From: a virus
Length of the DNA: 64,000 bases
Virus record (IMG/VR): IMGVR_UViG_3300046168_000070
Location: 96,001 to 160,000 of that record
Direction: 5' to 3' (one strand)
Below, piece after piece: positions 33,305-52,020 of the stretch. The first letter of the stretch is position 1. Each line of letters starts with the position of its first letter. The position numbers and the translations under genes were made by a program. The notes under the pieces were generated by a model. The model saw nothing but the letters and a program-made list of their open reading frames with translations. It searched no databases and was not told where the DNA came from.

Positions 33305-36300
33305 CCATCATTCTCTGATTTCATGTGAATCAAGTATTTTTGATTAGAATCTAAGTTGTTTATTGAGTATGATAGATCGTTAGTGGAAACCTCGGTATAG
33401 TTGCTAGCCCCTTCTTTTTTATAATATATAATATAATTATTAGCTGATAATACTCTAGCCCATGATAAATCAACAGAATCAACTCCCACGGATCTTATAT
33501 TTAAATTTGGAGCACTAGGAAAAGTTAAAAAGTCTCCAGAAGAAGAAAAGGAAGAATAACCGAAGTTGTTTTTTGCTCTTATTTTATAAAAATATTTTTT
33601 ACCTGGATCTAAATTTTCAATTACTTCAGATATCGAAGCAGTTAAAAAATCTTCATTATAGCCCTGTTCAAATGAGGAAAAATTAGGCTCCTGTGATAGT
33701 AATAAATTATATTCATCGGCGTTTAGAGAAGCTGCCCAGGACAAGGTTATACCATAGTATGTACAGTTTGATGTTGAAGGCTTACTTGGCGTCGATGGCA
33801 TTGACTCGGTTAATACATTTATAGTGGAAGAGTTTTGGCTTAACCCACATCCTAAATTTTTAGCTCTGGCTCTAATATAATATCTCGTATTGGGGGATAG
33901 CCCAATAACAGGAATAGAGGTGTCGCTTGTCTCTTTAGACCTAAAGTCTGAAATAAAGTTTGAAAAGTTTGAATTAGTTGATATATCTATTTCATATGAT
34001 ATTACCGAAGCTGGTTCGGATAGGGCGATATTAAAACTATTAGCCGTGACATTAGAGGAAGTTAAGGTTGGGGAGCTGGGAAAAGTTAAGACTAATTCTG
34101 GATCAGAATATTCTGTTGATCCATATTGATTAAAAGCTTTTATCCTATAATAGTATTTTGTTCCTGGATCTAAGTTGGTAATATTAATTGACAAAGAAGA
34201 AGTACGGAAGCTAGTATTGTAAGAACCGACAAAAGAAGAGAAATTAATATCTTCAGATAAATTAAACTCATATTGTGTAGAATTTGGATCTTTTACCCAA
34301 GATGCAGTGAACCCATAATAAGAGCAATTTGATGGAGGATTTAATCCTTTAAGTGAAGACTTTGACGGAGTAATTTGAGAAACAACATTACTATATGGAC
34401 TTTTCCCACAATCACCATCAGATGATCTAACTCTAAAATAATATTCTGTTTTTTCTTGTAAATTGTTTAATGAAATATTATTTGCTGACAACTCAACTCC
34501 CGCATAGTTACTTATTAGGGGGCTCATTGTTTCTGATTTTGATAGATCGAATATATATTTAACTCCACCGCCCACAGACCCCCAAGATGCGTTGAATGAA
34601 TTAGGGGTTGCTGAAGAAGCTGATAAATTAGTTGGTGTTGCAGGCGCCGTACAATCAGATCCAGTTTCTGAATTTTGAGATGCGCCGCAATCGTTAACAG
34701 CTCTAATTCTATAGATATAGTTTTGCCCAGCCGTTAATCCTGTCACCTTTAGAGAATTCTCTTCAACCGATTTTGAATTATAGCCTGTCAAATTGGGGTT
34801 AAAATTATTTGATTGTAGCGATACATCAACTTCATAACTTTCTGCTCCATCAGTATTATTCCATTTTAAAAGTATTGAGTCCTGTTCTGTAGAGGGCGAT
34901 TCGATAATTAGTGGAGCAGGAGGTATGGTTACTTTAAATTTATCAAAAGAATAGTCTCCTTGCCCTGTAGGATTAATTGCCCTAACTCTGTACCAATATT
35001 TTTTTCCAGCTAGCAAATTTGTTACGTCATAACTATTAATTGAAGAGGTTTTCGTTAAACTGTATACTGGAAAACCATTTGCATCAACCGCGCTAGTATA
35101 TTGTATCTCATATTCAGAAGCTCCAGTTATATTAGGCCAGGATAAAGTAAATCCATAGAAATCGCATTGAGTTGCTGATATATTGGTTACTTGTTTTGGT
35201 ATGAGGGTTACTGATTCTGGGGAAGTTCCTGAAGTTTCTCCGCAGTCATTATCTACATGTAAAACTACGGAGTATGTTTCGCCTTGCTCTAAACCAGTAA
35301 TTTCCATTGAGGTATAATGAGTTTTCTTCCTATCATATCTGATGAGCGGAGCAGAAGACCCATGTTTGAAAACTGAAACCATATAACCATTATTCAGTCT
35401 TGACGGATCCCAGTTCAGCATGAATTCAGTTTCTAAAATATTTGAGAATCTAATATTTGTGGGCTGGGGTGATCTAGTTTGGTTTTTAAATATTTCAGAA
35501 TTGAAACTTGTTCCAGAATTATTAACAGACCTTACTCTAGAATAGAAAACTTTACCTGCATCTAGCTCTTGAATTAAATAGTTATTTGTAGTAACAAGAT
35601 ACGAATCTAAAACTAGACTGGCAAAATTAGGATCGTTAGATAAATCTAATAAATAATGATTAGCTCCTTTTGAAGCTGTCCAATTCAACTTAAACCCAAA
35701 ACTAGGAGAATCTTGACAGTTCGAAAAGCTAGTAATTTCTGGATTGGCAGGAATAGTTATAGTCTCAACAACGTTAGACCATTGCGAATATTCTCCATAT
35801 TCATTTTTAGATCTTATTCTATAATAATAAACAGTACCTGGCTCAAGAGCGCATAACTCATATGAATATGTAATTTGCAGATTACCGTCTCCCTGGAAGC
35901 GCATTTTATCTAAAACTTTATTATTATTATTGAAATAAGGATCTTCTTTAGAAACATCAAGTTCGTATTCATGGTCTATAACAAAACCTTTCCAATTTAA
36001 GGTAAAGCAGGACTGAGTTTGGCTCGTAGCTAATTTAGCTTGAGGTCTATACACTTGGATAGTCGGCTCTCGACATTGCCTGTCGGGCTCGGGACCAATT
36101 TCTACGTCGTCTAACTCTGCTGAGAGGCTTCCAGAAATTATTGATTCATCGAGAAAATTATAATAACCTTGATATGATAAAGAAATCTCTAATTGTTCAT
36201 TTACTGATGCGCTTATGTTTTCACCTATGAGTCGTGCATTAGGTATATTGTAAGAACCAATAACTGATGTGTTGTCAGAGTTTTTAACTAAAATAGAAAG

Positions 36301-37158
36301 ATCTTTTTTATGCGGGCTAGTGTTTTGTATTAAGTAATCAAAAACATTTTTAGCTTCATAATCATCAATATGTAATACTATTTCAGCGTTAACCTCGTAA
36401 GGAGGTATAGCTTGCACTTCAACAGGCCTATCTTTTCCAACTACATAAATAGGCTCTCTTGGGGTAGAAAGAGTATAAGAAAAACTTTGTACGCGATTAG
36501 TTTCTGTACCGAACCCAGAAATATGTATAGATCCTTGATCTGGTATTTGAATAATTTCTCCATCTTCCTCGGGGTGCAAAATTGGAGTGGCCGACCTAGG
36601 ATGGTCTCCAGATAAACCAACCCATCCGTAATCTAACCATTCTATGGCGTCTAGCTTTACTGAATCTTGATCCCTGACTACTCCAGTAGTTAATATCCCA
36701 GTTTCGACATACTGCTTAACTAACCCAGTTTCGGTATGATGTAAAGTTGTGTTATAATTTTTAACTTTATTTTTTGCTAATGTGCGAGATCCTCCTCCTA
36801 TATTTCCGTAAACAGCAATGTCGGCAGAAACTGAAGGTATGGCTCCTACAGAACAAGAGACAGAGTAATCCTGTAAATAGCCACTAACAAAATCAAAGCT
36901 AGTTCCATTATAATAAATTCCACCGTTGAACCCTAATTCACCAGTATAATTTAATAACGGATCTCTTGTAATCAAACTTCTCTCTATGGAAAAATTACCT
37001 TGAAGAGGTTGAGTAACTAAGCTATCAAAATATCCGTGACCTAAAACATTAAGGGGCTCTTCATTTATTTGATAGCCGCCATCTATTGCTGTAACGCCAG
37101 AGACTTCATAGTTTTCTATAAAAAACTTTTGTTCGTAATTAAAATTTGCTCCGTTCAT
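33178..37158 (-). CDS. Tail-tube-fold N-terminal domain plus 10 FN3 domains
   Basis: N-terminal ~340 aa with RVQSFSY..REPIYVVG; ten FN3 repeats; last 25 aa out of pattern. Confidence 0.8.
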   Translation of the reverse strand: MNGANFNYEQKFFIENYEVSGVTAIDGGYQINEEPLNVLGHGYFDSLVTQPLQGNFSIERSLITRDPLLNYTGELGFNGGIYYNGTSFDFVSGYLQDYSVSCSVGAIPSVSADIAVYGNIGGGSRTLAKNKVKNYNTTLHHTETGLVKQYVETGILTTGVVRDQDSVKLDAIEWLDYGWVGLSGDHPRSATPILHPEEDGEIIQIPDQGSIHISGFGTETNRVQSFSYTLSTPREPIYVVGKDRPVEVQAIPPYEVNAEIVLHIDDYEAKNVFDYLIQNTSPHKKDLSILVKNSDNTSVIGSYNIPNARLIGENISASVNEQLEISLSYQGYYNFLDESIISGSLSAELDDVEIGPEPDRQCREPTIQVYRPQAKLATSQTQSCFTLNWKGFVIDHEYELDVSKEDPYFNNNNKVLDKMRFQGDGNLQITYSYELCALEPGTVYYYRIRSKNEYGEYSQWSNVVETITIPANPEITSFSNCQDSPSFGFKLNWTASKGANHYLLDLSNDPNFASLVLDSYLVTTNNYLIQELDAGKVFYSRVRSVNNSGTSFNSEIFKNQTRSPQPTNIRFSNILETEFMLNWDPSRLNNGYMVSVFKHGSSAPLIRYDRKKTHYTSMEITGLEQGETYSVVLHVDNDCGETSGTSPESVTLIPKQVTNISATQCDFYGFTLSWPNITGASEYEIQYTSAVDANGFPVYSLTKTSSINSYDVTNLLAGKKYWYRVRAINPTGQGDYSFDKFKVTIPPAPLIIESPSTEQDSILLKWNNTDGAESYEVDVSLQSNNFNPNLTGYNSKSVEENSLKVTGLTAGQNYIYRIRAVNDCGASQNSETGSDCTAPATPTNLSASSATPNSFNASWGSVGGGVKYIFDLSKSETMSPLISNYAGVELSANNISLNNLQEKTEYYFRVRSSDGDCGKSPYSNVVSQITPSKSSLKGLNPPSNCSYYGFTASWVKDPNSTQYEFNLSEDINFSSFVGSYNTSFRTSSLSINITNLDPGTKYYYRIKAFNQYGSTEYSDPELVLTFPSSPTLTSSNVTANSFNIALSEPASVISYEIDISTNSNFSNFISDFRSKETSDTSIPVIGLSPNTRYYIRARAKNLGCGLSQNSSTINVLTESMPSTPSKPSTSNCTYYGITLSWAASLNADEYNLLLSQEPNFSSFEQGYNEDFLTASISEVIENLDPGKKYFYKIRAKNNFGYSSFSSSGDFLTFPSAPNLNIRSVGVDSVDLSWARVLSANNYIIYYKKEGASNYTEVSTNDLSYSINNLDSNQKYLIHMKSENDGCGTSQASSDKVSQRNLQRVQFQASQKLIASREGSRLIGQPL

Positions 37159-40100
37159 TACTTCATTTTACTTGGATTTGGTAATACGCCGCCTAATCTC
37201 TGTTGATCTGTTAATATTTTAATAACTGACTCTTCAATTTGTTTTGCGATGTCATTGGCTTTTTGATTAACGCTAGAATTAACGCCGTTAGCACTTCCCA
37301 TGTCGCTTGATCCTCCGCCTTCATAAGAAGATTGCGAGCCGCCTTTTGAGTCTACAGTTACATTGATGTTTATGTCTCCTACGCCTCCGCCTGATCCTCC
37401 GCTAGAGGTTGAAAAGCCTCCGCTTCCTCCAGAAGGTTGAGATTGTAAAGCTAATAATATTTGAGAAAGTAAATCATTTTGTATGCTAGCTTGATCTACA
37501 AAATTAGAATTATTTGAAACATTAGATACATTAGATGAACTACGTACAGAATTAGAATTAGAGCTAGAAGAATTATTTATTTCAGTAGATTGAGATGTTT
37601 GACTTTTATCTATTACATTTTGTACGCTATTTGATATCTCTTGAGAAATAGTGGTATTTTGATTTTTAATTTCTTCTAAAATAGATTGTAATATAGTGGA
37701 TTGATCTGTGCCTGCTTCGCCTGCTTCTCCAGTTGTTATATTGTTTGTTGTTTTTGATTCTATCGTTTCTTTTAAGGTTTGAGTTTCACTGCGTGTTGAT
37801 TCTGCGGTTTCCCCTTGTATTATTAATGTATCTAAAATTTGCTGTAAAAGTTCAGACTGAGAATCCATGTTACTGCCTGCGGGCATTGATACATTTTTAC
37901 CCACAACTCCACCTCTATTTAAACGTTGAGCATTGATACTATTAAAGAAAGATAAGCCGTGTTTTTTGACAGCATCTTTATTTATTACGAATTCCCCTCC
38001 AGTTAATAAAGAAGGGACTTTCCCTTTTTGAGCGGAGTGACCCACTTTCCCTCCTAACGCGAAATTTTCAGTTAATCGTCGCTGGACATTATTAACTACT
38101 CCAGTAGACCCAGATATTGTTTTAGTTTCTGCTAAGCCAGCTGCGTTACTGGATAGAGGAGCCATGTTTTGCCCCATCATTGCTGTACCCGCCGAAGTGT
38201 TCCATGAAGTGTTTTGTAAAGAAAGAATGTCTGCCACTGATCCACCACCAATATTTTGAGAAAGATTTGGATTCTTAAAGCCTCCAAAGAAACCAGATTG
38301 CTGAGAAGCCATGCCTAGAGAATTAACTTGAAAACCAGAGCCTGCGAATCGAGCATTAGCTGCATTACCCCCTCTGGAAAATAAGTTTTTAGTGAAACTG
38401 CTAGAGCCTCTTGTCGAGCTTCCTGGATTAGCTCCTCCAGTAAATGATACGTAAGCTTGAGGATTACTAATTCCGTTCATTGCAAAGCGAGAACTGGCCT
38501 TGGCCATATTTGGCATTCCTCCTTTCATGTAAAGATCTCCAGAAGAAATATTCATATCCTTCATTACTTGCGGGGCGTGTTGTTTGAAAGTTTCTGGCCT
38601 TAAGGGCCCTGTTGGAACACCTGCTTCAGCCCTAACCCCTTGTTCTAGACCCATTGTGTTTGATGCTTTTGCTACTTGAGTACTTTGTATTGCGCTCGTT
38701 AATTGTGACACTCCAAAACTAATTGCTGCCCCTATTAAAGCCTGTTTGATGGCATTTTTAATTGCTTTCTTGCGTTGCTCTCTATATTTTCTTAACGCTT
38801 CAACATTTCTATCATAGGCGCCTACAGCATCTAAAGCTTGCTGTTTTGCAGTCATTACTTCATCCGCAACAGGTCCGCTAATTAAGCCTAACCCTGATAG
38901 CCTAGCACTCTCGTCCTCTAACTGAATATTAACACCCCCTCCTGAGCTGGAAGGCATTGCTTGGCCGTAATCATCTACTGCTCCTGTTGATTGAATTACA
39001 TCTCTTGCTCCAGAAGTTCCAGCTTGAGTTGCGAAACTCATAAGATTGTCTCTACCTGTAATTGCTCCCGCTTCCATCGTGCCCGCCTGACCAAATGAAG
39101 AAATCAAAAACCCGCCTTCTCCTGTTTGCTCTTCTAATTCTCGACTTGGGTCTGCAGGTCCAATCATACCTCCTTGATTTCTTTGCTTAACTGTACCTGA
39201 ATTGATGGATGTTAAAAAATCTTTTCCATATTTATTCACTGCAGATTTACGAATTACATATTCCCCGCTGTTTAACATCGCAGGAACGTCATCTTTTGTT
39301 CCACTGCCTCCGTAAACTTCTCCTCCATCACTCCTTCTAACTACTCCACCTTTTGAGAAAGGACTGAATCCTCCTGTCATCGACCCGATTCCTGTATTCA
39401 CTAAGCCTAAGATTTGATTTGAAAGTTTTTGTTGAATAGCTTGGTTTAATGTATCAAGAAAACCCAGAGCAACATCTTGGAGGGCGTCATCCCATGATTT
39501 AATTCCTGCGCCAGCTTCAGTTAAAGCTTTAGCCATATTGCTCGAGAATGTTCTAGGCAAGTCTTCACCTAGGGTTCTGTAAAATTCTAACTCGCTATTC
39601 TGAACGGTATTTGAGTTACTGGCTACACCTGCGAGAAAGACATCTCTATTACTCATTGGGCTCATTCCTTGTTGAGCCATTCCTTGCCTCATGGCCATTT
39701 GTTGAGCGGGGCTCGAAACATTATATTGACGCTGCAAGTCTAAAGAGGCTCGTGCCGCACCCGATATATCGCCAGATTCTTTGAGTTTCCTAATTGAATA
39801 AGAAGCTTTCTCTGTTTCGTCTGCCATTTTTCTAAGAGGGTCAAACTGAGCCTTAATTTGCTCTGAATGAGCAGCAAGGTCCTTGGCGTCTTCATCAAAA
39901 CCAGCAGAAGTTTTTCTTACATTATTATCTAATTGAGCAAAACTATTTAATATAGTATTTGAGGCTTCGCTAATTTTAGAGAAAGAACCGTCTTGAGATA
40001 AAGCTTTAATTTGATCTTCTATTTTCGCACCTTGAAGATCTTTTCTTTTTCCTAGAGCTTCTTGGAAGCCAGCATCTTTTGTTATAACTTTCAGCATCTC

Positions 40101-43100
40101 ATTTTTCATAGACTCGTTAAATTTAGTGGGGTCTTTTACGTTTGAGAACTGAGACTGAGCATCGTTAAATATTTTATTTAAATTAAAGTTTTTAACTTTA
40201 TCTTGAGATTCCTGAAGAGTATTGGTGGGGCCAGGGCTAAGTAATCCTTTGTTTCTATTTATTAATCCAATTTTATTTTGTAACTCCGCCGTTTCTTTAG
40301 TTAATGATGATAATTCACTTTCGAGAGCTTTATTACTTTTTTCAATTTCATCTGCCGTTTTTAAACTTCCTTGATTTTTTGAAATTGATTTTTGCTGGTT
40401 ATTCCAATCTGCGAACGCTAAGTTTAAATCTCCTGGTTGAGAGAAGTTTTTTTGGTTTTGTGATATAGCGCTCATTAATGGATTTTGTTGGGCAAATCTA
40501 TTACCTCCAAGACCAAAAGCTTTAATAAAATCAACTTGCGGAATTTGTCTTTGGGCCACTTCATCTTTCACTAGAGGAACTGAGGCATTTGCTTTTAGTT
40601 GCTCTTGAATGCTTGAAATTCTTGCCTGTCTTTCTTCAAGCTCTTTCGATAAACTAGAACCTCCGCTTTTTAACTTTTCTTGCTCTGCCGCTGCAGCAAA
40701 TACATCAGCATTAGCTTGTTCTACCAACGTCGCCCTTAATTCGTCTATGGCTATTATTAATTTATCATTTGAATTAATTAATGCATCCTGCACAGATGTA
40801 TCTTTAAATAACTGAGCTCCTTGAATTTGAGTTTCCTTGATTGATTCTGCACTAAATTTTTCTCTTCTTTTTGCGAGTAATTTACTCTCTGTTTCAATAT
40901 CAAAAAGTTCTTGAGCTCCGTCTCCTGTTTTTGTGAAAGGCTGATACTTTCTTTCTCTTTCAATTGCTCTTATTTCAGAATCAAACCCGAGACCTTCGTC
41001 TATTTGAATAGATCTTAGAGAGCGAATTTTTTCATCAACTGCTAGATTTAATTGCTGTCTCGAGTTAGCTTCTTTTTCTTGCAATTCTTGAATACGCATT
41101 TGAGTTGTGATCTGCTTATTCTCAATGCTCAATTTTGCGTTAATTAAAGATTCGCTTTCTTTATATCCATCAAGAACTGTTTTTATGGACTCGGATAATT
41201 GCCTACCTTGAGCCAATGTGCCAGGTTTAATGCCCAAGGCCTCTTCGAGCTTTTCTGGAGAATCTAAAAGTGTTTTAATTGTTTCTGCACTAGCGTTTTG
41301 TATTTTTTCTGAAAATGCGGATAAACCAGTAGGGGTCACTCCCTCACTTTTGAGCTGATTTAAAACGTCACCTAATAGTTTTTGCCTAGTTTCTTCAAGG
41401 CTTTCGCTTTTTTCTAGCTCTGCATTTACCCCTGCTTGAGCTTTGAGCATGTTCTCTTCCATTGCCAGCCTGTCTGACACAGAAGAATTCATTGTCATAT
41501 ACTTTAGCTTGAGTTCATCGAGCTCGTTTTTTATTTTTAAATCCCCTTTTAGGAATTCAAATGCTATTTTGCTTTTAACTGCAGCTTGCCTTATATTATC
41601 CTTGAGCGAAGAAAAATCTCTTGCCGCATTCTTCATTTCTTTAGCGACTTTTGCACTACCTTCTAGGACATCTTTGAGGTTCTTACCTGATTCCTGAACG
41701 GCTTTAAGGAAAGAGTCCCAGCCACCTTCGTCTATAATATTATCTATTTCGTCAGCTATTAAGTTAAAATTAACTTCATCTTTTTGTTTATCAAAACCTA
41801 GGATTTTAGCAACGTTTTCGCCTGACCTTTTTTCCCCTTCCGCAGCGCTTTTAAAGATAGGGCGCCCTCCCAAGCTTCTGCCTGTCATGTATCTATCTTT
41901 CTTTAAGTTGCTTAAGCTTCCAATTTGATCTTCAGTTAAACCAAACTGGCCAAAAGAGCTAGCTAGTTTTGATCTTTCTCTCTCTCCCACGCCTTTAGAT
42001 TTACCAATAAATGGATTGGCATCGTCAGCAGCTTCTCTGAAAAGTCCTAAGTTCTCTAATAATTGCGCTGAGCCTACTTGCTTTTGTGTAATTTGGGCAA
42101 AATTTTCGCGAACAGCTGCTCTTTCTTGCTCGTTGTTTGCACCTAGATATGCTTGAGCTAAAGTTTGACCCTTTTGATTTTTTAGATTAGGGTTACTTTT
42201 ATTTAATGTCTCGCTTATTTTTTTAGCTAATTCAGACTCGGATAAGCCTGATGATTTGAGCTGATCTAGCGCTCCAAAAGTATTATTTAATTCAGTTTGA
42301 ATTGAGGAGGCTTCTTGAACTACCCCAGCGAGCTCTTCCATACTTAATTCTGTATTACCCAGAGCACTTACCAAGCCTCCAGCCGCTCCAAGAGCTCCTC
42401 CGACAGCAGCTCCAACCGCAGTTCCAATAACAGGTACAGCGCTACCTATTGCACCTCCTAGCATTGCTCCTGAAGAAAGACCTGTAGTTATACTACCTGC
42501 AGCGCCGCTAGCAAATCTTTGACCCTTACTCATTTTGACTCTATCTCCGCCGAAAGCAGAAGTAAGACCTTGATCTATTATTCCTCCAGCAATAGGTAAT
42601 CCAAAGCTTGCGCCGAATCCGCCAGAAAATCTACCGAAACTCCTGAGAGCTTTTGCGCCTTTCGATTTACTATCCCTAAGCCCTCTAAGCCTGCTACCGA
42701 TGACCCCTTCTTCTCCAAGCCCTAATTTACCTGATTTATTTACGAGTTTTTCTTGATCAGATTTTTTTCTAGCTGCGTTAATTTGCTTTATACCTTCTGC
42801 AGTTTCTTGCTTTTCAAAACCCAACTGCCTTAGTGCTTCTTTAGTTTGTCCTTCACTGGCTCCTTTTTCTTTAAGTCGAAGTAGTAAGGTTTCTTTGTTT
42901 AAACCAGTTTGGTTAAGTGCGTGAGTATTATATGTTTTTACAAATGACTGCATGTCAGAGTTTAACTTGACTCCAGTTTTACTCATTTCCTTCATTGCTC
43001 CTCCCAATACTTTTAAGTCGCGAAATACACTTGAATCAAAACCAGGCAGTTTTCTACTACGAGCAGCAAAATTTGGAACATCTTGCATGCCTCTTGGTTC

Positions 43101-46007
43101 GTCTCTAGTATTTGTGACTGCGAGTCCCATTGGATTGCTGGAACTTTTTAATTTATTGCTTTGATTGATTCTAATTTTAGATACAGGTAGACCAGCGGCT
43201 TGTTCTCTTTGTATTGCTTCTATTAATGGATGATCTTTCGCAAAGCTTGGGATAAATCCTGAGGCAGCTGTCTGGCCTATTTGAGCTAAATATTTTTGCC
43301 TATTATCATTAAAGATTTTTTTAGCCATACTGTCAAATGTTGATTTATTTGCAGAAGCTTTAAAATCCATTCTATTTATCCCAGAGCTTCCGATACCAAA
43401 AAGTTTTCGAACTTTATCGAGTGTTCCAGGAGATTTGCTTGTATTGCTGATATTTACATCAAAATCTCCCTTACCTCTTTCTGCAGACATAGCGCTATCT
43501 ATCCCGTATGCTTGAGCTACCGCAGCTTCGAAAGCGGCCCCAACGGCAGCTCCCACAGCCCCTTTGCCTCCAGGAGTTGATTCGAGTTTTTTCTTTATAG
43601 TTGACGAGTTTACCCCTCGAGTCCCTTTGGGTTTAATTGCATTTGAGAATTGAGCGGATGATTTAAAAATGTTTTGAGAAACGCTACTTTCTAAATTATC
43701 TTCTTGTGGATTAGTAGCTTGATCACTAGAGGGGCTTTGCGGGCCAGCAACCAATAAATTAGACATGCTGTAAGGATAGGTTTTGCTTCCAGATTTAAAA
43801 GTGCCTACGCTTGGCTGGGCAATTCCTGGAGTTCTGTTGATTTGAGGTACGAGTACCGCATACCCAGAGCCACTAATATCCATGCGCTGACTTTTTCTTT
43901 GGGCTCTTTTTTCGTCTGCAGCTTTAGCTCTTTGGGCAGATAAGCCTCCGCCTTGAGCTTGCCGAAGCAATTCCCTCTGTTCGTCTACTCCTATACTCGA
44001 TCCAGCAAAACCGCTCCACGATGGCGGAGGTATTTTAACTGAGCCACCTTCTCTGATATGCCTCAAGGATTCATCTAAACTGTTAAATCTGCTGATTTTT
44101 TTTGCCGCGAAATTAGGAACAAAACCTCTACTTGCATACGGATCAAACCCATATATGTCTAATGTTTTTTGGCGATGACTTTTTCCAGCCTCAGAGGCTG
44201 AAGGTGGATTTATAAAGGGATCTTGAAAGCCAGGAACTTTTTTGACTTTTTCAGCTGTATTATATATAACTGTTTGTCCGCTAGGCATCTCCATGCTTTT
44301 AACTTTGCCTGGGGCGTATCCCCCTGCTATGGCCCCATTTCTTTCTCTTTGTTTCGCGTTAAAATTTGGTATGTATCCAGAAGCGCTTCTACGAGCAGCT
44401 CTTTCGGGAATTATAAGATTTTCATTAGCTCCTATATTGACAGCTGTTCTAGCAAGATGTTGAGCTAATTTGACTTGCTCTCTCTGCGCTGCTGTTTGCT
44501 TAACGATTAAGTCTAAAATGACTTGTTCTTGCTGTCGCTTTGTCTGCCCTTGACCGATTAGAGACCCTACGACTTCGTGATTACTGCGTAATAAATTTAA
44601 AATGCTTTCTTGTACCGCTTTTTGTTTCTGAGCCTCAGAGGTCATGCCCATGAAGTTTCTTATACTGGTGGAGGCAAATTTTGCTACATCAACAAATAAT
44701 TTACCAACAAGACCTAGAATCAAGACTGCTCCTGGCCCAGATATTACATTACCTATTCCTTTAAGAAAACCATTTGCAAAATTGCTGCCTATAGAGTCTC
44801 CATCTAAAACATTAGAAATTCCATCAGCTAACCCGTTTACCGCTTTTAAAATCTTTTCAATGCCTGGGCCTACTGTAATTGATCCAATCTGATCTGCTAG
44901 TTGCTGTAGGCTTAATCCTGTTTTTGTAAGTAAAGCATCTAATGTTTTATTTAATTGCTCATTCTTTTTTACAGCTTCATCTGTCGCTGATGCTGATATT
45001 TGAATTGCTCTGGCTGTAATACTATTTTCCTTACCCAAGTCCCGCATTGCTGCTTTTAACGTATTGATCTGAAACATTCCACCAACTAATTGTGCAATAT
45101 TAGATTGTTGTGACTGCGATAAAGTATCGTATGTCTTAGCTAAGTTTTCAAGAATTTTAATCGCTGGAATTACATTGCCCTGCATATCCTTGACTGCAAC
45201 CCCAAGCATTTCTAGCTGTTCAATAGTTTGAGGTCTCTGTATTCTAGTAAAAATTGTTTTAAATGAGTTACCGATAACAGCTCCACCTCTAGCAGTAATT
45301 TGTTGAGCTGCTGTGATAGCGCCTATTAATTGATCAATATTCATTCCCGCATCCTGAGCAACTGCTGATGCTCTAGATAAGCCGTCGATTAAATCTTCTG
45401 AACTAACAGCAAAAGCCATATCGACTGCAGCCAGTTTATTCATTATATTTGCAGTAGATAATCCAGCGTCTCCAAATGCATTGATTGCAGCAGTAAGACC
45501 TTTAACTGAATCTGCTGCTTTCATCCCTGTTAACCTTGTGAGTATAAGGGCATCATTAGTCCTTTTTAATGTTTGCTCCATTGTTAAACCTTGACGGGCA
45601 AATTCTGTTGCGGCTGAAGCTACAGAGTCAAAGCTTTGAGCTGTATTCTTTGCTATTTTAAATAAGCTATTACCAAATTGGTCTAAATTTTTAGCGCTAG
45701 TACCCATGACAACATTGATATCAGCTAGAGCTTTCTCTACTTTTATTGTTTGTACAACTAATTGAGAAAAAGCATTTTTAACTGATTCGATAACAGCTAC
45801 TGAGGCGCCGAATGCTACAACACGAGCATTGGAGGCTTCAATCGACTTAGTGAATTCATCCGCCGCCCCTGTAATTCTTCCTAACGGTTGAGTGAAAGAG
45901 CGATCATCAACATTTATCTTCAAAGGCTTTCTGTTGAACTGGTCCATAGCCTTTTGTATGGAGCGTTCTAAGCCTACTTGTTCTACTGGAAGTTTGAAAG
46001 TACTCAT
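37158..46007 (-). CDS. Tape measure protein with embedded cassettes
   Basis: TP901-type core (AATEFARQG, KLAAVD..AVSSEDL, IGNSFKTIFTRI); helical Ala/Gly/Lys-rich body; two L..GE(Y/F)VI.K.AV motifs. Confidence 0.9.
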   Translation of the reverse strand: MSTFKLPVEQVGLERSIQKAMDQFNRKPLKINVDDRSFTQPLGRITGAADEFTKSIEASNARVVAFGASVAVIESVKNAFSQLVVQTIKVEKALADINVVMGTSAKNLDQFGNSLFKIAKNTAQSFDSVASAATEFARQGLTMEQTLKRTNDALILTRLTGMKAADSVKGLTAAINAFGDAGLSTANIMNKLAAVDMAFAVSSEDLIDGLSRASAVAQDAGMNIDQLIGAITAAQQITARGGAVIGNSFKTIFTRIQRPQTIEQLEMLGVAVKDMQGNVIPAIKILENLAKTYDTLSQSQQSNIAQLVGGMFQINTLKAAMRDLGKENSITARAIQISASATDEAVKKNEQLNKTLDALLTKTGLSLQQLADQIGSITVGPGIEKILKAVNGLADGISNVLDGDSIGSNFANGFLKGIGNVISGPGAVLILGLVGKLFVDVAKFASTSIRNFMGMTSEAQKQKAVQESILNLLRSNHEVVGSLIGQGQTKRQQEQVILDLIVKQTAAQREQVKLAQHLARTAVNIGANENLIIPERAARRSASGYIPNFNAKQRERNGAIAGGYAPGKVKSMEMPSGQTVIYNTAEKVKKVPGFQDPFINPPSASEAGKSHRQKTLDIYGFDPYASRGFVPNFAAKKISRFNSLDESLRHIREGGSVKIPPPSWSGFAGSSIGVDEQRELLRQAQGGGLSAQRAKAADEKRAQRKSQRMDISGSGYAVLVPQINRTPGIAQPSVGTFKSGSKTYPYSMSNLLVAGPQSPSSDQATNPQEDNLESSVSQNIFKSSAQFSNAIKPKGTRGVNSSTIKKKLESTPGGKGAVGAAVGAAFEAAVAQAYGIDSAMSAERGKGDFDVNISNTSKSPGTLDKVRKLFGIGSSGINRMDFKASANKSTFDSMAKKIFNDNRQKYLAQIGQTAASGFIPSFAKDHPLIEAIQREQAAGLPVSKIRINQSNKLKSSSNPMGLAVTNTRDEPRGMQDVPNFAARSRKLPGFDSSVFRDLKVLGGAMKEMSKTGVKLNSDMQSFVKTYNTHALNQTGLNKETLLLRLKEKGASEGQTKEALRQLGFEKQETAEGIKQINAARKKSDQEKLVNKSGKLGLGEEGVIGSRLRGLRDSKSKGAKALRSFGRFSGGFGASFGLPIAGGIIDQGLTSAFGGDRVKMSKGQRFASGAAGSITTGLSSGAMLGGAIGSAVPVIGTAVGAAVGGALGAAGGLVSALGNTELSMEELAGVVQEASSIQTELNNTFGALDQLKSSGLSESELAKKISETLNKSNPNLKNQKGQTLAQAYLGANNEQERAAVRENFAQITQKQVGSAQLLENLGLFREAADDANPFIGKSKGVGERERSKLASSFGQFGLTEDQIGSLSNLKKDRYMTGRSLGGRPIFKSAAEGEKRSGENVAKILGFDKQKDEVNFNLIADEIDNIIDEGGWDSFLKAVQESGKNLKDVLEGSAKVAKEMKNAARDFSSLKDNIRQAAVKSKIAFEFLKGDLKIKNELDELKLKYMTMNSSVSDRLAMEENMLKAQAGVNAELEKSESLEETRQKLLGDVLNQLKSEGVTPTGLSAFSEKIQNASAETIKTLLDSPEKLEEALGIKPGTLAQGRQLSESIKTVLDGYKESESLINAKLSIENKQITTQMRIQELQEKEANSRQQLNLAVDEKIRSLRSIQIDEGLGFDSEIRAIERERKYQPFTKTGDGAQELFDIETESKLLAKRREKFSAESIKETQIQGAQLFKDTSVQDALINSNDKLIIAIDELRATLVEQANADVFAAAAEQEKLKSGGSSLSKELEERQARISSIQEQLKANASVPLVKDEVAQRQIPQVDFIKAFGLGGNRFAQQNPLMSAISQNQKNFSQPGDLNLAFADWNNQQKSISKNQGSLKTADEIEKSNKALESELSSLTKETAELQNKIGLINRNKGLLSPGPTNTLQESQDKVKNFNLNKIFNDAQSQFSNVKDPTKFNESMKNEMLKVITKDAGFQEALGKRKDLQGAKIEDQIKALSQDGSFSKISEASNTILNSFAQLDNNVRKTSAGFDEDAKDLAAHSEQIKAQFDPLRKMADETEKASYSIRKLKESGDISGAARASLDLQRQYNVSSPAQQMAMRQGMAQQGMSPMSNRDVFLAGVASNSNTVQNSELEFYRTLGEDLPRTFSSNMAKALTEAGAGIKSWDDALQDVALGFLDTLNQAIQQKLSNQILGLVNTGIGSMTGGFSPFSKGGVVRRSDGGEVYGGSGTKDDVPAMLNSGEYVIRKSAVNKYGKDFLTSINSGTVKQRNQGGMIGPADPSRELEEQTGEGGFLISSFGQAGTMEAGAITGRDNLMSFATQAGTSGARDVIQSTGAVDDYGQAMPSSSGGGVNIQLEDESARLSGLGLISGPVADEVMTAKQQALDAVGAYDRNVEALRKYREQRKKAIKNAIKQALIGAAISFGVSQLTSAIQSTQVAKASNTMGLEQGVRAEAGVPTGPLRPETFKQHAPQVMKDMNISSGDLYMKGGMPNMAKASSRFAMNGISNPQAYVSFTGGANPGSSTRGSSSFTKNLFSRGGNAANARFAGSGFQVNSLGMASQQSGFFGGFKNPNLSQNIGGGSVADILSLQNTSWNTSAGTAMMGQNMAPLSSNAAGLAETKTISGSTGVVNNVQRRLTENFALGGKVGHSAQKGKVPSLLTGGEFVINKDAVKKHGLSFFNSINAQRLNRGGVVGKNVSMPAGSNMDSQSELLQQILDTLIIQGETAESTRSETQTLKETIESKTTNNITTGEAGEAGTDQSTILQSILEEIKNQNTTISQEISNSVQNVIDKSQTSQSTEINNSSSSNSNSVRSSSNVSNVSNNSNFVDQASIQNDLLSQILLALQSQPSGGSGGFSTSSGGSGGGVGDININVTVDSKGGSQSSYEGGGSSDMGSANGVNSSVNQKANDIAKQIEESVIKILTDQQRLGGVLPNPSKMK

Positions 46008-46031: not shown

Positions 46032-47039
46032 TTATTGTTTTGGATTAGCTCCCATTAAGGCTATTAGATCATTCATATCTAAAGATCCACCCTTTTTCTT
46101 CGCTTCTTCATATAATGATACTTCTTTAGGGCCATTTTCTTTATCAACCCCCATGTATTCATAGTCTTCTTTGTTCGCTCCAAATACTGTGGTAGCACCT
46201 CTTTTATCTTCGTCTTTAGTTAATGTTTCCTTATTTTTATCAGAAGAATTTGCAAAATCTAATAAAGCTAAAGGATCTTTTTTAATATGTTCTGGTATTT
46301 TTTCGTGCTTCTCTAAAATAGATTTAAATATTCTACTATAAACTATTAGTCTGATTTGATGTTGCGTTAAAAAACAAACAGGCTTTCCATAAAATTGAGT
46401 AGAGTCTTCGCAAAACGGCATATAAGGAAAGAAAAATTCTTCTAAACAAATTTTTTGTATATTATATTCTGATATTTCATTATGCCATTTATTATGTAAA
46501 TTAATAATTTCAGTAAGCTCTGACCTAGCGATAGCATCATATTCCTCTCTGGTAAAAAGATTGTCTTCCAGTGTTTTATCTTTATAAAAACATTGTAAAA
46601 TGTAATAATCATTGACCCTTTCTTTAGCATACCTTTCTGCGGTTCTTCCTAGTAATTCTTCTTTTTCGTTTTTCTTTTCGTTTAACTGATTCTGGACCTC
46701 CATGATCCTTCTATTTTGTTCGTCTATCTGAGACTTGAGTCCTATATTCTTTTTATTAGAAACCAGGCTATCTAGATATTTTTCTTTATCTTTAATAAAA
46801 AACTCATCATCTTCAGTCCAGTCTCCGCCTTCTATTAGAAGATTCAAATTTTCTTCTTCAGAAGGAACACCTCTGGACTTTGCTTCTGATAAGTATTCAT
46901 CATGAACGTCCTCAAGATCTACTTGATCATGGGAGTTTATGTGCTTTATGTATACTTGTTGGCGCTGAAATTTATCTTGAGAATAGCCTCTGACTATATC
47001 TCTAAATATTTTTCGTAAAATATTTGAGTCATCAGCCAC
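46032..47039 (-). CDS. Tail assembly chaperone-like protein
   Basis: Directly upstream of TMP; charged helical. Confidence 0.55.
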   Translation of the reverse strand: MADDSNILRKIFRDIVRGYSQDKFQRQQVYIKHINSHDQVDLEDVHDEYLSEAKSRGVPSEEENLNLLIEGGDWTEDDEFFIKDKEKYLDSLVSNKKNIGLKSQIDEQNRRIMEVQNQLNEKKNEKEELLGRTAERYAKERVNDYYILQCFYKDKTLEDNLFTREEYDAIARSELTEIINLHNKWHNEISEYNIQKICLEEFFFPYMPFCEDSTQFYGKPVCFLTQHQIRLIVYSRIFKSILEKHEKIPEHIKKDPLALLDFANSSDKNKETLTKDEDKRGATTVFGANKEDYEYMGVDKENGPKEVSLYEEAKKKGGSLDMNDLIALMGANPKQ

Positions 47040-47047
47040 CGCATTGT

Positions 47048-47956
47048 CTATTTAGTTTTTTTGGTTGGCTTTCTCGAGCTTGGTCTAGAGGTTTTTTTCG
47101 TTGCGGGCTTAGGCTTGCTAGCAGGAACCTTTTCGGCAATTTGTTCAACTTTTAATTCTTCTTCTTTTTTTGGATTTAATTCTTGATCCACTTCCTCTAC
47201 ATCTTCATTTAGATTGTCAAACTCTTCTTTGTCTGTGCTACTACTGAAGAACCAGTAGCTAATAAAAGTTGTGAGTTTATTTTTTATGTTGTTAAAAATA
47301 TCAGATTTGCCTTGCTCGTCAAAAAGGTAATATTGCTCTAACTTATCGTCGGCTGTAACACCTTCAAATAAAGGGACAAGCTCACTGTCTTCAGCTTCTT
47401 CTTCTTTAAAATAAGTTAAATTTACAACATACCACATAATAGCTTTATTTTGAGCTTTTGTATCTGCGGTATGGTTGAAAAGAGCTGAGTAGGCTGTCTC
47501 AAGATTAACAATACTTGTTCTCGTTTCAGTTAAATCTATTAATAGCTGTCGAATGACATTAAGATCTTCGGCGCTCTTTTTTTCTTTGCTTTGATATCTT
47601 TGGTATTCTGTCTGTAGTTCGCCTACTCTGGCGTAGTGTTTATTAAGTTCTAGAGCGTCATCCTCAGTCATCATACCTCCTAAGTCTGAGTATTTTTTAG
47701 AAAGCATAGCTTTAGTAAGAATTCCTTTTTTAATACAGCGACTCATTTCGATACTGTACTCCATGTCAGCCTCTTCCATTTGCCTACGGTTCGGTTGCTT
47801 AATGACAATCCTGTACCTCGTTGGCACTTCAATAGTTTTAGATACAGTTACTTTTTCAGGGTCGCCCGTTTCTTGATTAAACTCTGTTTTAGTTTCAGAT
47901 ATTTCTTTTGTTTGACTTACTTCTGTACTGAAGCTATAGATTTCTTTATTACTCAT
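47048..47956 (-). CDS. Tail assembly chaperone-like protein
   Basis: Upstream of TMP; PNRRQMEEAD..KKGILTKAML. Confidence 0.55.
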   Translation of the reverse strand: MSNKEIYSFSTEVSQTKEISETKTEFNQETGDPEKVTVSKTIEVPTRYRIVIKQPNRRQMEEADMEYSIEMSRCIKKGILTKAMLSKKYSDLGGMMTEDDALELNKHYARVGELQTEYQRYQSKEKKSAEDLNVIRQLLIDLTETRTSIVNLETAYSALFNHTADTKAQNKAIMWYVVNLTYFKEEEAEDSELVPLFEGVTADDKLEQYYLFDEQGKSDIFNNIKNKLTTFISYWFFSSSTDKEEFDNLNEDVEEVDQELNPKKEEELKVEQIAEKVPASKPKPATKKTSRPSSRKPTKKTK

Positions 47957-47964
47957 AATATATT

Positions 47965-48255
47965 TTATTTTTTAAACTCAAAAATTAAATCAATTTTTTC
48001 AAATTCAGAATTATTTTTCCGAACTGATTCATTCCCCATGTCTAATACTTTCTTTCGAATAGATTGTAATTTTTCATAATCGAAGTAATCAGCCATATTA
48101 ATTAATCCTTCATGTTCTTCAGGTAAGGAATGCTTGAGTTTTAAAAATATCCTCTGATGTTCAGAGTGTAGATCTTCAACAATATTTAAAAATCTTTTAA
48201 ACAGATCTTTAGTATGTTTTTCAATATTTTCTTCTATTAATTGTTTTGGTTCCAT
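47965..48255 (-). CDS. Hypothetical protein
   Basis: ORF track; purine-rich leader. Confidence 0.7.
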   Translation of the reverse strand: MEPKQLIEENIEKHTKDLFKRFLNIVEDLHSEHQRIFLKLKHSLPEEHEGLINMADYFDYEKLQSIRKKVLDMGNESVRKNNSEFEKIDLIFEFKK

Positions 48256-48317: not shown

Positions 48318-48764
48318 ATGGTAGGACTATTCTCAGAATCTGATAAAGATGAAATAAGGCAGAGCTTTAAGCTACTTCATGATACATTTGGTAGAGAGGT
48401 ATTTATATATAAAGATGCTAAAAAAATAATTGTATCTTCTGACTCTACATTTAATTCTGTTTATGGATTAGCTAATAACGGAACTCAATCAGTTGAATAT
48501 GAACCTGTTCAGCAGTCAATAAAAGCCAGAATAATATATGGTAAGCAGCAAAACGAATCAAATTTTCCTGGCACAAGCGTAAACGCAGAGTTATCCGAGG
48601 GAGAAGTAAAAATTACTGTAACGAAAGAAGATTATAATAATTTTGTTAAAGATGCTAAGCGGGCAGAAATCGATGGCGAGAAATTTATTTTTATAAGTGA
48701 TCCAAGGCCTCAAGGAATGTTTGGGCCTGATTATTATTCATTTATGCTAAGGAGAGCTCAATGA
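48318..48764 (+). CDS. Head-closure/head-tail joining protein
   Basis: 148 aa beta-rich; IKARI, AEIDGEKF pattern; position. Confidence 0.55.
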   Translation: MVGLFSESDKDEIRQSFKLLHDTFGREVFIYKDAKKIIVSSDSTFNSVYGLANNGTQSVEYEPVQQSIKARIIYGKQQNESNFPGTSVNAELSEGEVKITVTKEDYNNFVKDAKRAEIDGEKFIFISDPRPQGMFGPDYYSFMLRRAQ

Positions 48765-49360
48765 TCAATCAAATATTGGCCAACAAAATAATTGAACAGC
48801 AATTAATGAAGCAACCTTCCGCTCTTAAGAGCCTGAGAGTTCATGCCTTAAGGGAAGTCGAAACAGAAATAAACATAATCAAAAAAGAAATGTTGTACGA
48901 ATTTCAAAATCATCCAATCACTAGAGAAATAGAAATGGGGCCAAACGGGCAAAATATAAGCGGAACCTTGGGTGGCAAAGGTAATTTATTTACATTTATA
49001 GGTTTTGATAAAAATGATAAACCAACCCTTCCAATAAAAGAATACTTATTAAAAGTTAGTGTGGCTTATAAAAGAATGGAGAAAGGGCGTTTTATATTTG
49101 ACATAACATATCCTTCTAAGGAAGAATTATTCTCAATAACTCCAATGCCTTGGGCCTCGGGAAGAAGCTGGTTAAAGGGTATAGAGCTAGGCATGTCTGG
49201 ATTAGGAATGTATTTACATAAATCAGGAGACCCTATCAGAGTTAGTCGCTCAGGGCAGGCTATACAAGTTAAGGGCAAAATTAGTCCTGGCAAGTTTACA
49301 AATACATCATATATTTCTAAAATAATTAATAACTTTACGGCAAAAATACAAAAATTATGA
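48761..49360 (+). CDS. Neck protein (HK97 gp10-like position)
   Basis: Basic 199 aa between head closure and terminator-like gene. Confidence 0.5.
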   Translation: MINQILANKIIEQQLMKQPSALKSLRVHALREVETEINIIKKEMLYEFQNHPITREIEMGPNGQNISGTLGGKGNLFTFIGFDKNDKPTLPIKEYLLKVSVAYKRMEKGRFIFDITYPSKEELFSITPMPWASGRSWLKGIELGMSGLGMYLHKSGDPIRVSRSGQAIQVKGKISPGKFTNTSYISKIINNFTAKIQKL

Positions 49361-50631
49361 AAGTAACATATCAACACGAGGTCACGACAAGCTTTGTCTT
49401 ATGGTTTGATCATTTTCTTTTATCAAAAGGACAGGCTTTTAAGAATCTTACAAGTACATTTTATCCTCAAGTTGATGCAAGACTTCCGAATAACGTAATA
49501 TATGCGTCTCCGCATAAACAGTGGGTTACTGATGCTAGCATTGCAGGTGCTACGATACCAAATGGAGTATACAATGATGGAGTCTTTGTGCCTAGAGGAA
49601 CTAGTGGATTAAAATTGGACTTCGAGAATGGTAGAGCTATACTGAACTCAGGGTTTTCAAGCTCCGCTAATATAACAGGAACATTTGCTCTTAAGGATTT
49701 TAATATATATGTCACTGATCAGAATGAAGAGGATTTAATAATTGAAAGCAACCATAAGATTAATAGTCGATTTTTTAGAGAAAACGCAGGAATACCTCCA
49801 TATGACCAAGTGGTTCCAGCTATATTTATATCAAATGATGGCTTCAAAAATGACCCTTTCGCTTTTGGCGGAGAAGATAAAACTACGACATATTTTAAAG
49901 CTGCAGTTATAGCCGAGAATCTTTATACGCTTGACGGCGTCCTTTCTATCTTTAATGATTCAAATAGGACTATATTTAGCAAGATTGATTTTGAAGACCA
50001 TCCAATGAATGAGTTTGGCGACTTTAAAAACGGCTCAAAAGTAGAAATATCTATTCCAAACTTAACTGCGAGCAGGTGGCATGGCGACCATACATACCAA
50101 TATGGAGGTACTTTTACTATAAAGAGTTACGAAATAAACTCTCAAACAAAATTCTCGATAATTTATAGCGCTGCTGGAAGTAATGCAAGTTTTAATTTTA
50201 ATAAAGAAACGAATGAAGTGACGGTATCTTACCCTAGATACGCACAAGATAGGACATTCTTTACTTGGACGCCTGGTGGCGGAAATGACTATATTAGTGT
50301 CGGCAGCGACCCTTCGCTGAGGGATATTATTAATTTTATTAATAGCCAGCCAGGGTTTACGGCATCGACTACTGCAACTGAATACAACACTTTTTATGAG
50401 ATTGCTCCTCCTGGGTTGAGTAGTGGAGAATATTATCCCGTGGATGATGTCTCTGATATTCGTACATATAATTACGAAACTTTAGCGGAAAAAACTAAAC
50501 AAGATTATTTTTTAATAGAATCTGTATCATGCTCTAGAATGTCAGATAATTTAAGAAAAGTTGTATTGGATAATTTATTTGTAGGTTTTATTGATTTCGA
50601 AGTGGCTCAAACTAGATTCCCTAGATTATAA
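49357..50631 (+). CDS. Tail completion/terminator-like protein with insertion
   Basis: Upstream of tail tube; conserved-looking ends with an aromatic-rich insert. Confidence 0.45.
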   Translation: MKVTYQHEVTTSFVLWFDHFLLSKGQAFKNLTSTFYPQVDARLPNNVIYASPHKQWVTDASIAGATIPNGVYNDGVFVPRGTSGLKLDFENGRAILNSGFSSSANITGTFALKDFNIYVTDQNEEDLIIESNHKINSRFFRENAGIPPYDQVVPAIFISNDGFKNDPFAFGGEDKTTTYFKAAVIAENLYTLDGVLSIFNDSNRTIFSKIDFEDHPMNEFGDFKNGSKVEISIPNLTASRWHGDHTYQYGGTFTIKSYEINSQTKFSIIYSAAGSNASFNFNKETNEVTVSYPRYAQDRTFFTWTPGGGNDYISVGSDPSLRDIINFINSQPGFTASTTATEYNTFYEIAPPGLSSGEYYPVDDVSDIRTYNYETLAEKTKQDYFLIESVSCSRMSDNLRKVVLDNLFVGFIDFEVAQTRFPRL

Positions 50632-50756
50632 AAAATTTTAAATTAATAACTAATTAAATTAAATAAAATTTAAGAATCTTACAGGAAAGATAAATAAAAA
50701 TTTCCCAAAAAACAAAAAAAAATGTAATCGAGCATATCATCTAATATTTTTTTATT

Positions 50757-51944: not shown

Positions 51945-51976
51945 CCTTAATTTAGAGATGTAATCTCTTAACTATA

Positions 51977-52003
51977 AAAACACCCCGAAAGGGGTGTTTT
52001 TTT
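51977..52003 (+). terminator. Intrinsic terminator
   Basis: AAAACACCCC-GAAA-GGGGTGTTTT plus T-tract. Confidence 0.9.
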
Positions 52004-52020
52004 ATTGTGTAAATATATGT

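What the first reader, a model, noticed from the sequence alone, without database searches (positions are those of the whole stretch)
43050..44400. Tape measure carries a motif-delimited cassette with a PD-(D/E)xK nuclease-like domain
Seen: four copies of a short motif punctuate the TMP just after its TP901-type core: ASGYIPNF (~44370), ASRGFVPNF (~44120), AASGFIPSF (~43250) and QDVPNF (~43075). The ~280-aa segment between copies 2 and 3 is globular-looking and contains GAAFEAAV..GDFDV..MDFKAS (~43530, ~43465, ~43365). Established: this is the E..D..(D/E)xK order of restriction-endonuclease-fold nucleases, and TMPs are ejected into the cell and often proteolysed. Inference: the PNF motifs are cleavage or swap boundaries for exchangeable effector cargo injected with the genome, for example to cut host DNA or defence elements. 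This resembles a polymorphic-toxin system.
Basis: partly seen in the sequence, partly recalled or inferred. Interest (0 to 1): 0.85.

Follow-up and report, generated by a model that had tools for sequence, protein, structure and literature searches.

The report
Tape measure with peptide-fenced swappable modules
The tail-length "ruler" protein of an uncultured 194-kb phage carries three folded modules, each ending in the same short peptide at which related phages gain, lose or exchange whole modules; the middle module has a conserved nuclease-like residue pattern, but no nuclease fold or family match could be shown.

Summary
The 2,949-aa TP901-type tape measure protein (TMP; window 37158-46007, minus strand) has four copies of one peptide at aa 542-980. 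Composition predicts 0.05 copies.

In 254 related TMPs the peptide (A-[AS]-x-G-aromatic-[IV]-P-N-[FY]-A) recurs 1,313 times. It closes at least 62 unrelated module families that share nothing else. Nearly identical phages differ by whole modules exactly at the peptide. One 456-nt indel is flanked by the motif-coding repeat.

The window has the commonest layout, F2-F1-F0, and its close relatives show no cargo variation. AlphaFold2 folds all three modules and leaves all four peptides in low-confidence linkers.

Some relatives carry a staphylococcal-nuclease module and a helix-turn-helix in the same slots.

Verdict: the swap boundaries are supported. Cleavage, delivery and nuclease activity are untested. 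Earlier follow-ups in this scan described the same motif system on other DNA. I found no paper describing it.

The parts
37158..46007 (-). Tape measure protein gene, 2,949 aa
   Evidence: ORF. Matches PF10145, TIGR01760 and PHROG tape measure families. It sits between unannotated upstream genes and FN3-rich tail and fibre genes.
45090..45653 (-). PF10145 (PhageMin_Tail) core, aa 119-306
   Evidence: E 4.1e-26.
44361..44384 (-). Junction peptide 1 (aa 542-549)
   Evidence: pLDDT below 50 in model 2.
44109..44360 (-). Module F2 (aa 550-633), a small alpha+beta domain; its last 9 aa are junction peptide 2 (44109-44135)
   Evidence: Found in 149 of 249 TMPs with internal modules. pLDDT about 90; helix, four strands, helix. 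Many invariant columns.
43242..44108 (-). Module F1 (aa 634-922): disordered lead-in, then a folded alpha/beta domain at aa ~690-915 (43263-43940); it ends in junction peptide 3 (43242-43268)
   Evidence: AlphaFold2 pLDDT mostly above 90. 173 homologous modules, found only inside TMPs.
43317..43529 (-). Conserved polar site of F1: E827 (43527-43529), D850 (43458-43460), D881 (43365-43367), K883 (43359-43361), K897 (43317-43319)
   Evidence: In 173 modules: E 99%, D 92%, D/E 100%, K 100%, K 98%.
43068..43241 (-). Module F0 (aa 923-980), always the last module; it ends in junction peptide 4 (43068-43085)
   Evidence: Found in 239 of 249 TMPs. 17 invariant columns. pLDDT 72-81; helix plus two strands.
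42357..42629 (-). Gly/Ala-rich hydrophobic stretch (aa ~1127-1217) that starts the usual tape measure body
   Evidence: Read from the sequence. Charge-free 40-mers start at aa 1165-1180.
39162..39386 (-). First C-terminal GG...GE[YF]V repeat. It is preceded by F-S-P-F-S-K-G-G, which has the same F-to-GG spacing as the phage T5 pb2 cleavage context.
   Evidence: The T5 site is from PMC10038345.
37893..38117 (-). Second C-terminal GG...GE[YF]V repeat
   Evidence: Conserved in alignment A2.

Best explanation
This is a genuine tail tape measure protein. Between its N-terminal TP901 core and its usual hydrophobic and coiled-coil body it carries a plug-in array of independently folded modules. In this phage there are three (F2, F1, F0).

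Shown:
- Each module ends in one exposed peptide, A-[AS]-x-G-aromatic-[IV]-P-N-[FY]-A.
- Selection keeps this peptide at the protein level.
- Its coding DNA serves as the joint at which relatives insert, delete and exchange whole modules.

Inferred:
- The peptide is a signal that every module needs. Most likely it is a processing (protease) site, by analogy with the maturation cut of phage T5 pb2 after F-V-P-R.
- The modules sit at the head-proximal end of the tail lumen and leave last, just ahead of the DNA.
- F1 is a conserved enzyme-like or DNA-handling domain built around E827, D850, D/E881, K883 and K897. It is possibly a divergent metal-dependent nuclease, but it is not demonstrably a PD-(D/E)xK family member.
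For: - Identity as a tape measure protein.
- Peptide enrichment.
- Census of 254 TMPs: 1,313 peptides and 184 module clusters, of which 62 have at least 2 members. The commonest layout is F2-F1-F0 (98 TMPs); others have up to 23 peptides.
- Module families align to each other only over the last 9-12 columns.
- P0103 and P0108 are 98.3% and 96.7% identical on either side of a 152-aa module, and the two alignments overlap on the peptide.
- At DNA level that indel is 456 nt. It is flanked by motif-coding repeats identical at 19 of 21 nt, and the blastn segments overlap by 24 nt.
- P0086 and P0114 are 92% identical up to the peptide that closes F1 and 47% identical after it.
- The four window copies differ at synonymous sites, so the peptide itself is selected.
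- All four peptides lie in linkers of pLDDT about 45-76 between confidently folded domains.
- F1 site conservation.
- F3, which fills the same slot and never co-occurs with F1 (0 of 172 and 42 TMPs), has E...VD.I..G..P.E.K. Its E-helix aligns to that of F1 (19 columns, probability 75%).
- DNA-directed domains in sister slots: a staphylococcal nuclease (PF00565, 25.1 bits against a cut-off of 21, with the DGDS...VDAvEK signature) and a CI-type helix-turn-helix.
- Precedents: T5 pb2 is cut after R1127, which separates an enzyme domain (PMC10038345; context read). The N-terminal part of the P23-45 TMP is a working virion RNA polymerase (PMC10770324).
Against: - No cleavage product, protease or delivery was or could be observed.
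- No trypsin-like or HK97-type protease family was found in the genome.
- The Asn is Ser in 4% of all copies, including window copy 3, so Asn-specific chemistry is unlikely.
- The T5 resemblance is only three or four residues.
- F1 has no Pfam, PHROG or NCBIfam hit even at E 10 and no hit from a profile search of PDB sequences.
- hhalign against an Mrr profile gives probability 0.14%.
- A helix is predicted between the D strand and the (D/E)xK strand.
- Three folded domains of about 25 kDa are hard to fit in a siphophage tube lumen.
- The census was seeded with this very region, so module frequencies are biased.
Confidence: 0.5

Rival explanations
1. One reading: F1 is a true PD-(D/E)xK restriction-fold nuclease. 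It is cut out at the peptides and injected to cleave host DNA or defence elements.
For: - E-x22-D-x30-(D/E)-x-K-x13-K is conserved in 92-100% of 173 modules.
- The local strings (G..FE helix, GDFD, D-x-K-[AS]-S) look like Mrr or Hjc-type motifs. This comparison is from memory.
- The alternative module F3 has canonical D-to-ExK spacing.
- A staphylococcal nuclease fills sister slots.
Against: - No family, profile or fold match was found.
- The predicted topology is beta-alpha-beta, not the D/(D/E)xK hairpin, and there is no strand between the E helix and the D strand.
- D850 is Ser or Ala in 11 of 173 modules.
Confidence: 0.25
2. The peptide is an assembly or docking signal, not a cut site. It would bind the tail assembly chaperone or the tube lumen and hold each module in register. 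The modules stay part of one polypeptide and act mainly as structure, or as a DNA-end holder.
For: - The peptide is confined to the TMP in this genome.
- It lies in exposed linkers.
- The bracket modules F2 and F0 are far more conserved than the cargo, as expected for structural contacts.
- No protease candidate was found.
- The P23-45 TMP enzyme has no reported processing.
Against: - In T5 the TMP makes few ordered contacts with the tube wall (PMC10038345).
- A docking signal does not explain why enzyme-type domains (staphylococcal nuclease) are recruited to the slots.
- No partner was tested.
Confidence: 0.25
3. The peptide has no function as a protein signal. It is merely the translated form of a DNA recombination joint, or a neutral linker inherited with each duplicated module.
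For: A recent indel is flanked by motif-coding repeats identical at 19 of 21 nt.
Against: - The four window copies share little DNA identity beyond what the codons require.
- The peptide persists at about 30% overall protein identity and on unrelated module families.
- Gly, Pro and the aromatic positions are kept at 88-100%.
Confidence: 0.05

Closest known systems
Thermus phage P23-45 gp96, a giant tape measure protein whose N-terminal part is a virion RNA polymerase (PMC10770324)
   Same: A folded, DNA-directed enzyme is built into the N-terminal part of a very long tape measure protein and acts in the infected cell.
   Different: One enzyme only. No repeated junction peptide, module array or module exchange is described, and there is no sequence relation to F1.
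Phage T5 tape measure protein pb2 and its maturation cut after R1127 (PMC10038345)
   Same: The tape measure is cut during tail assembly at a site that separates an enzyme domain from the rest. The local context F-V-P-R|A-E-G-G resembles the junction peptide core F-[IV]-P-N-F-A. The window's own F-S-P-F-S-K-G-G lies before its first C-terminal GG repeat.
   Different: T5 has a single, C-terminal site and a wall-degrading peptidase rather than an array. The likeness is only 3-4 residues and is untested.
Polyvalent proteins of phages and conjugative elements (Iyer et al. 2017, PMC5512222)
   Same: Strings of unrelated effector domains are delivered with the DNA and are proposed to be released by proteolysis.
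   Different: Those proteins are head-packaged or conjugation-linked and usually carry their own zincin-like peptidase. The paper never mentions tape measure proteins (0 occurrences). No shared junction peptide is described.
Polymorphic toxins with a conserved pre-toxin peptide (CdiA VENN, Rhs PxxxxDPxGL) - from my own knowledge
   Same: A short conserved peptide marks the point where variable domains are exchanged by recombination. In Rhs it is also the self-cleavage point.
   Different: Those systems have one C-terminal toxin per protein, are secreted by bacteria and are paired with immunity genes. Here there are several internal slots in a virion protein and no immunity gene.
PD-(D/E)xK (restriction-endonuclease-like) nucleases such as Mrr or Hjc
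   Same: Order and spacing class of the conserved E, D and (D/E)xK residues, with small residues after the Lys.
   Different: No significant sequence or fold match. A helix is predicted inside what should be the beta2-beta3 hairpin.

Membership tests
TP901-type tail tape measure protein | Match to PF10145 or TIGR01760 above the curated cut-off | tested here: met
   PF10145: 92.5 bits against a cut-off of 33.2. TIGR01760: 105.7 bits against 28.8.
TP901-type tail tape measure protein | Position in a tail gene block; hydrophobic segment, long helical body and C-terminal GG...GE[YF]V repeats | tested here: met
   Downstream FN3-rich J-like and fibre genes. Sequence features. The profile matches solved tape measure proteins 8vjh, 8zdo and 8iyk.
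PD-(D/E)xK nuclease superfamily | Conserved E...D...(D/E)xK residues | tested here: met
   E827 99%, D850 92%, position 881 D/E 100%, K883 100% in 173 modules.
PD-(D/E)xK nuclease superfamily | Significant sequence or profile similarity to a known member family | tested here: not met
   Pfam at E up to 10 finds nothing on F1. PHROGs and NCBIfam find nothing. A profile search of PDB sequences finds nothing. hhalign against an Mrr_cat profile gives 0.14%. Only one nuclease family was tried by profile-profile comparison.
PD-(D/E)xK nuclease superfamily | Alpha-beta-beta-beta-alpha-beta core, with D at the start of beta2 and (D/E)xK on the adjacent beta3 | tested here: inconclusive
PD-(D/E)xK nuclease superfamily | Metal-dependent DNA cleavage | not testable with these tools
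   Needs purified protein.
Processed polyprotein / polyvalent effector protein | Unrelated domains separated by a recurring junction signal in exposed linkers | tested here: met
Processed polyprotein / polyvalent effector protein | Cleavage at the junctions and a protease that performs it | not testable with these tools
   No PF13365 or PF04586 match in the genome, but the absence of two families does not settle it.
Staphylococcal nuclease (module F7 of relatives, not in this window) | PF00565 match above the cut-off, with the catalytic signature | tested here: met
   P0054 aa 2191-2288: 25.1 bits against a cut-off of 21. Consensus of 15 modules.

The most novel reading that the evidence does not exclude
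A large clade of uncultured ~190-200-kb aquatic phages uses the tape measure protein as a cargo polyprotein. A dedicated junction peptide is cut by a still unknown phage or host protease. This frees a phage-specific set of enzymes inside the tail lumen, and they enter the cell just ahead of the genome. The set would include two new nuclease-like families (F1 and F3), a staphylococcal nuclease and DNA binders. The same peptide's coding DNA lets phages reshuffle this arsenal.
Probability: 0.3. Interest if true: 0.8.

Novelty: new variant of a known kind. Interest (0 to 1): 0.6.

Why it matters
Tape measure proteins are usually treated as rulers and channel formers. A widespread family has at least 911 clusters at 50% identity with E below 0.001. 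In it the ruler also holds exchangeable, peptide-fenced enzyme slots. That would add a second route, besides the capsid, for delivering ready-made proteins into the host.

It also offers a natural plug-in site for engineering phage cargo. The junction peptide gives a concrete, testable handle (mass spectrometry, mutagenesis) on how tape measure proteins are processed. The protease and the rules of that processing are still unknown even for lambda and T5.

Tried and rejected
Searches that found nothing:
- GenBank phage records, by DNA and by tblastn with the 439-aa cassette: no match.
- ESM Atlas feature search: best score 0.81, unnamed viral clusters.
- Free-standing F1 homologues of 128-408 aa: none.
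- Pfam scans of eight module-rich relatives: only PF10145, plus a staphylococcal nuclease and a helix-turn-helix in one.
- Literature: no paper combines IPNF, VPNF or 'PNF motif' with 'tape measure'.

Ideas dropped:
- Asn-driven self-cleavage or isopeptide chemistry. Ser replaces Asn in 4% of copies, including window copy 3.
- A general prohead-protease site. The peptide occurs only in the TMP.
- A DNA repeat as the cause of the four window copies. They differ at synonymous sites.
- A relative whose TMP is split near peptide 1 (L005). It has several overlapping frames, so the split is probably sequencing frameshifts and not evidence for separate polypeptides.

Not run:
- A trimer prediction of F1 (complex prediction) and a second Atlas query. 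The machines stayed busy.
- The Atlas fold library, which was not installed.
- Relatives of a virus record cannot be drawn, so I could not build a diverse nuclease profile.

Full report
**What is there.** The finding lies in one ORF, 37158-46007 on the minus strand, of 2,949 aa. It is a tail tape measure protein (TMP):
- PF10145 at aa 119-306 (E 4e-26).
- TIGR01760 at aa 78-401.
- Five PHROG tape measure families over aa ~13-475.
- A profile of it and its relatives hits solved tape measure proteins.

Downstream are FN3-rich J-like proteins and fibre genes with S74 chaperone domains. The window is bases 96001-160000 of a single 193,844-bp IMG/VR virus record that CheckV rates complete. No sheath family was found. 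The phage is far from anything in GenBank phage records.

**The observation.**
- The 4-residue core is expected 0.054 times in this protein and occurs four times, all within 439 aa. No shuffle in 20,000 gives three.
- Elsewhere in the genome the full peptide does not occur.
- The four copies use different synonymous codons, so it is the peptide that is kept, not a DNA repeat.

**Relatives.** An exhaustive profile-free search found 911 cluster representatives at E below 0.001. A word-based search found 956. I took the 254 sequences returned and cut them at the core pattern.
- There are 1,313 peptides, mostly 4-6 per protein and up to 23.
- Outside the pattern used to find them, the consensus is A, A/S, x, G (88%), F/Y/L/H before the core and A (62%) after it.
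- The 1,061 internal segments fall into 184 clusters, 62 of them with at least two members.
- Profile-profile comparison of the larger families aligns only their last 9-12 columns, which is the peptide itself.
- The layouts read like a grammar. F2 (or F3/F4/F17) usually comes first, F0 almost always comes last, and variable content lies between.

The window has the commonest layout, F2-F1-F0 (98 TMPs). Its closer relatives (45-77% identity) all share it. So the window itself shows the basic form; the variation is in more distant kin. This sample was seeded with the window's own cassette, so the frequencies are biased towards it.

**Exchange at the peptide.**
- P0103 and P0108 are 98.3% identical over aa 1-1356 and 96.7% identical over the rest. 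They differ by one 152-aa module, and the two alignments overlap exactly on the peptide.
- In their DNA (L007, L006) the indel is 456 nt. It is flanked by motif-coding direct repeats identical at 19 of 21 nt, and the blastn segments overlap by 24 nt.
- A third relative, P0102, has three further modules at the same place.
- P0086 and P0114 are 92% identical up to the peptide that closes F1 and 47% identical after it. This is a mosaic breakpoint at the peptide.

**Structure.** AlphaFold2 with 45-46 aligned homologues gave the following:
- F2 (aa 550-629): pLDDT about 90; helix, four strands, helix.
- F1 (aa ~690-915): pLDDT mostly above 90; a helix, a five-strand meander, three helices, then strand-helix-strand-helices.
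- F0 (aa 924-976): pLDDT 72-81.
- All four peptides lie in low-confidence linkers.

So the peptide is an exposed linear motif between folded units. F2 and F0 have many invariant columns and are far more conserved than F1. They look like fixed brackets around a cargo slot.

**Is F1 a PD-(D/E)xK nuclease?**

For:
- In 173 F1 modules the only columns conserved at 80% or more are G823, F826, E827, F849, D850, F870, G871, K883, K897 and the peptide. Position 881 is always D or E. That is the pattern of a functional site, in the right order.
- Module F3 fills the same slot and never co-occurs with F1. It has E, then VD.I..G..P.E.K with canonical spacing. Its E-helix aligns to that of F1 (19 columns, probability 75%).

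Against:
- No Pfam, PHROG or NCBIfam hit even at E 10.
- No hit from a profile search of PDB sequences.
- An Mrr_cat profile built here aligns the FE helices in register but with probability 0.14%. That profile had low diversity.
- The model places a helix (aa 862-869) between the D strand and the (D/E)xK strand, where the family has a hairpin. It also shows no strand between the E helix and the D strand.

I could not inspect coordinates or fold the sub-domain alone. My judgement is a nuclease-like site on an unmatched fold, with about one chance in four of being a real restriction-fold nuclease.

**What the slots hold elsewhere.**
- Module F7 (15 TMPs) is a staphylococcal nuclease: PF00565 above the cut-off in P0054, with the characteristic acidic and Arg signature in the family consensus.
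- Module F8 contains a CI-type helix-turn-helix.
- All other modules scanned have no Pfam family.

The recognisable cargo is therefore DNA-directed, which fits a nuclease-like or DNA-handling role for F1.

**How it probably works.**

Shown: a modular array with a selected junction peptide that is also the recombination joint.

Inferred:
- The peptide is a signal that each module must carry. My first choice is a protease site. Aromatic, then [IV]-Pro, then Asn-aromatic followed by a small residue is a plausible recognition string.
- T5 pb2 is cut after R1127 to separate its enzyme domain (PMC10038345). I read the context there as F-V-P-R|A-E-G-G. The window has F-S-P-F-S-K-G-G with the same spacing before its first C-terminal GG repeat. 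This likeness is short and is only a lead.
- The C-terminus of a TMP sits in the tail tip. The N-proximal modules should therefore lie at the head end of the lumen and leave last, next to the DNA end.
- The P23-45 TMP shows that an N-terminal TMP enzyme can act in the cell (PMC10770324).

The main rival is that the peptide is a docking signal for the chaperone or tube and that the protein stays whole. I found no protease candidate in the genome.

**Comparison with the known.** TMPs with embedded enzymes (P23-45, T5, and mycobacteriophage TM4 from my own knowledge) and polyvalent effector proteins (PMC5512222) are published. The polyvalent-protein paper never mentions tape measure proteins, and no paper in the library pairs this peptide with tape measure proteins. 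I rate it a new variant of a known kind.

Earlier follow-ups in this scan described the same peptide-fenced system in other genomes (e1-5645239, e1-5382711). First-stage notes flagged the same F1 pattern (e1-5376182, e1-5860057, e1-5860000, e1-5863741). I re-derived the census, the indel and the T5 context independently here.

Noticed in passing
window 54512-62779 (+): A 2,755-aa ORF with many near-identical 264-bp tandem units. They show up as a ladder of 84-aa antisense ORFs spaced 264 nt apart in the ORF list. It is probably a giant repeat fibre or decoration protein.
   Followed up: no
window 31145-37158 (-): Two FN3-rich ORFs (1,326 and 719 aa) overlap by 127 nt at 33178-33304 and carry the same domain types. 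They may be one gene split by a frameshift, either real or a sequencing error.
   Followed up: no
P0002 (relative from a 188,897-bp contig), aa ~2282: A near-identical TMP from another assembly leaves the window's reading frame at aa 2282 and ends at 2,291 aa. This is a frameshift variant or an assembly error just after the first C-terminal GG...GE[YF]V repeat.
   Followed up: partly
window 46032-48255 (-) and 48318-54492 (+): The three genes directly upstream of the TMP (335, 302 and 96 aa) and five divergently transcribed genes have no Pfam or PHROG match at all. In relative L005 the 335-aa gene appears as overlapping 103-aa and 231-aa ORFs. That could be a chaperone-type frameshift or an error.
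   Followed up: partly
module F3 of relatives (e.g. P0103 aa ~647-869, P0022 aa 751-988): Its consensus has E, then about 25 residues, then VD.I..G..P.E.K. This has canonical PD-(D/E)xK spacing, a cleaner nuclease candidate than the window's F1. It never co-occurs with F1. It has not been folded.
   Followed up: partly
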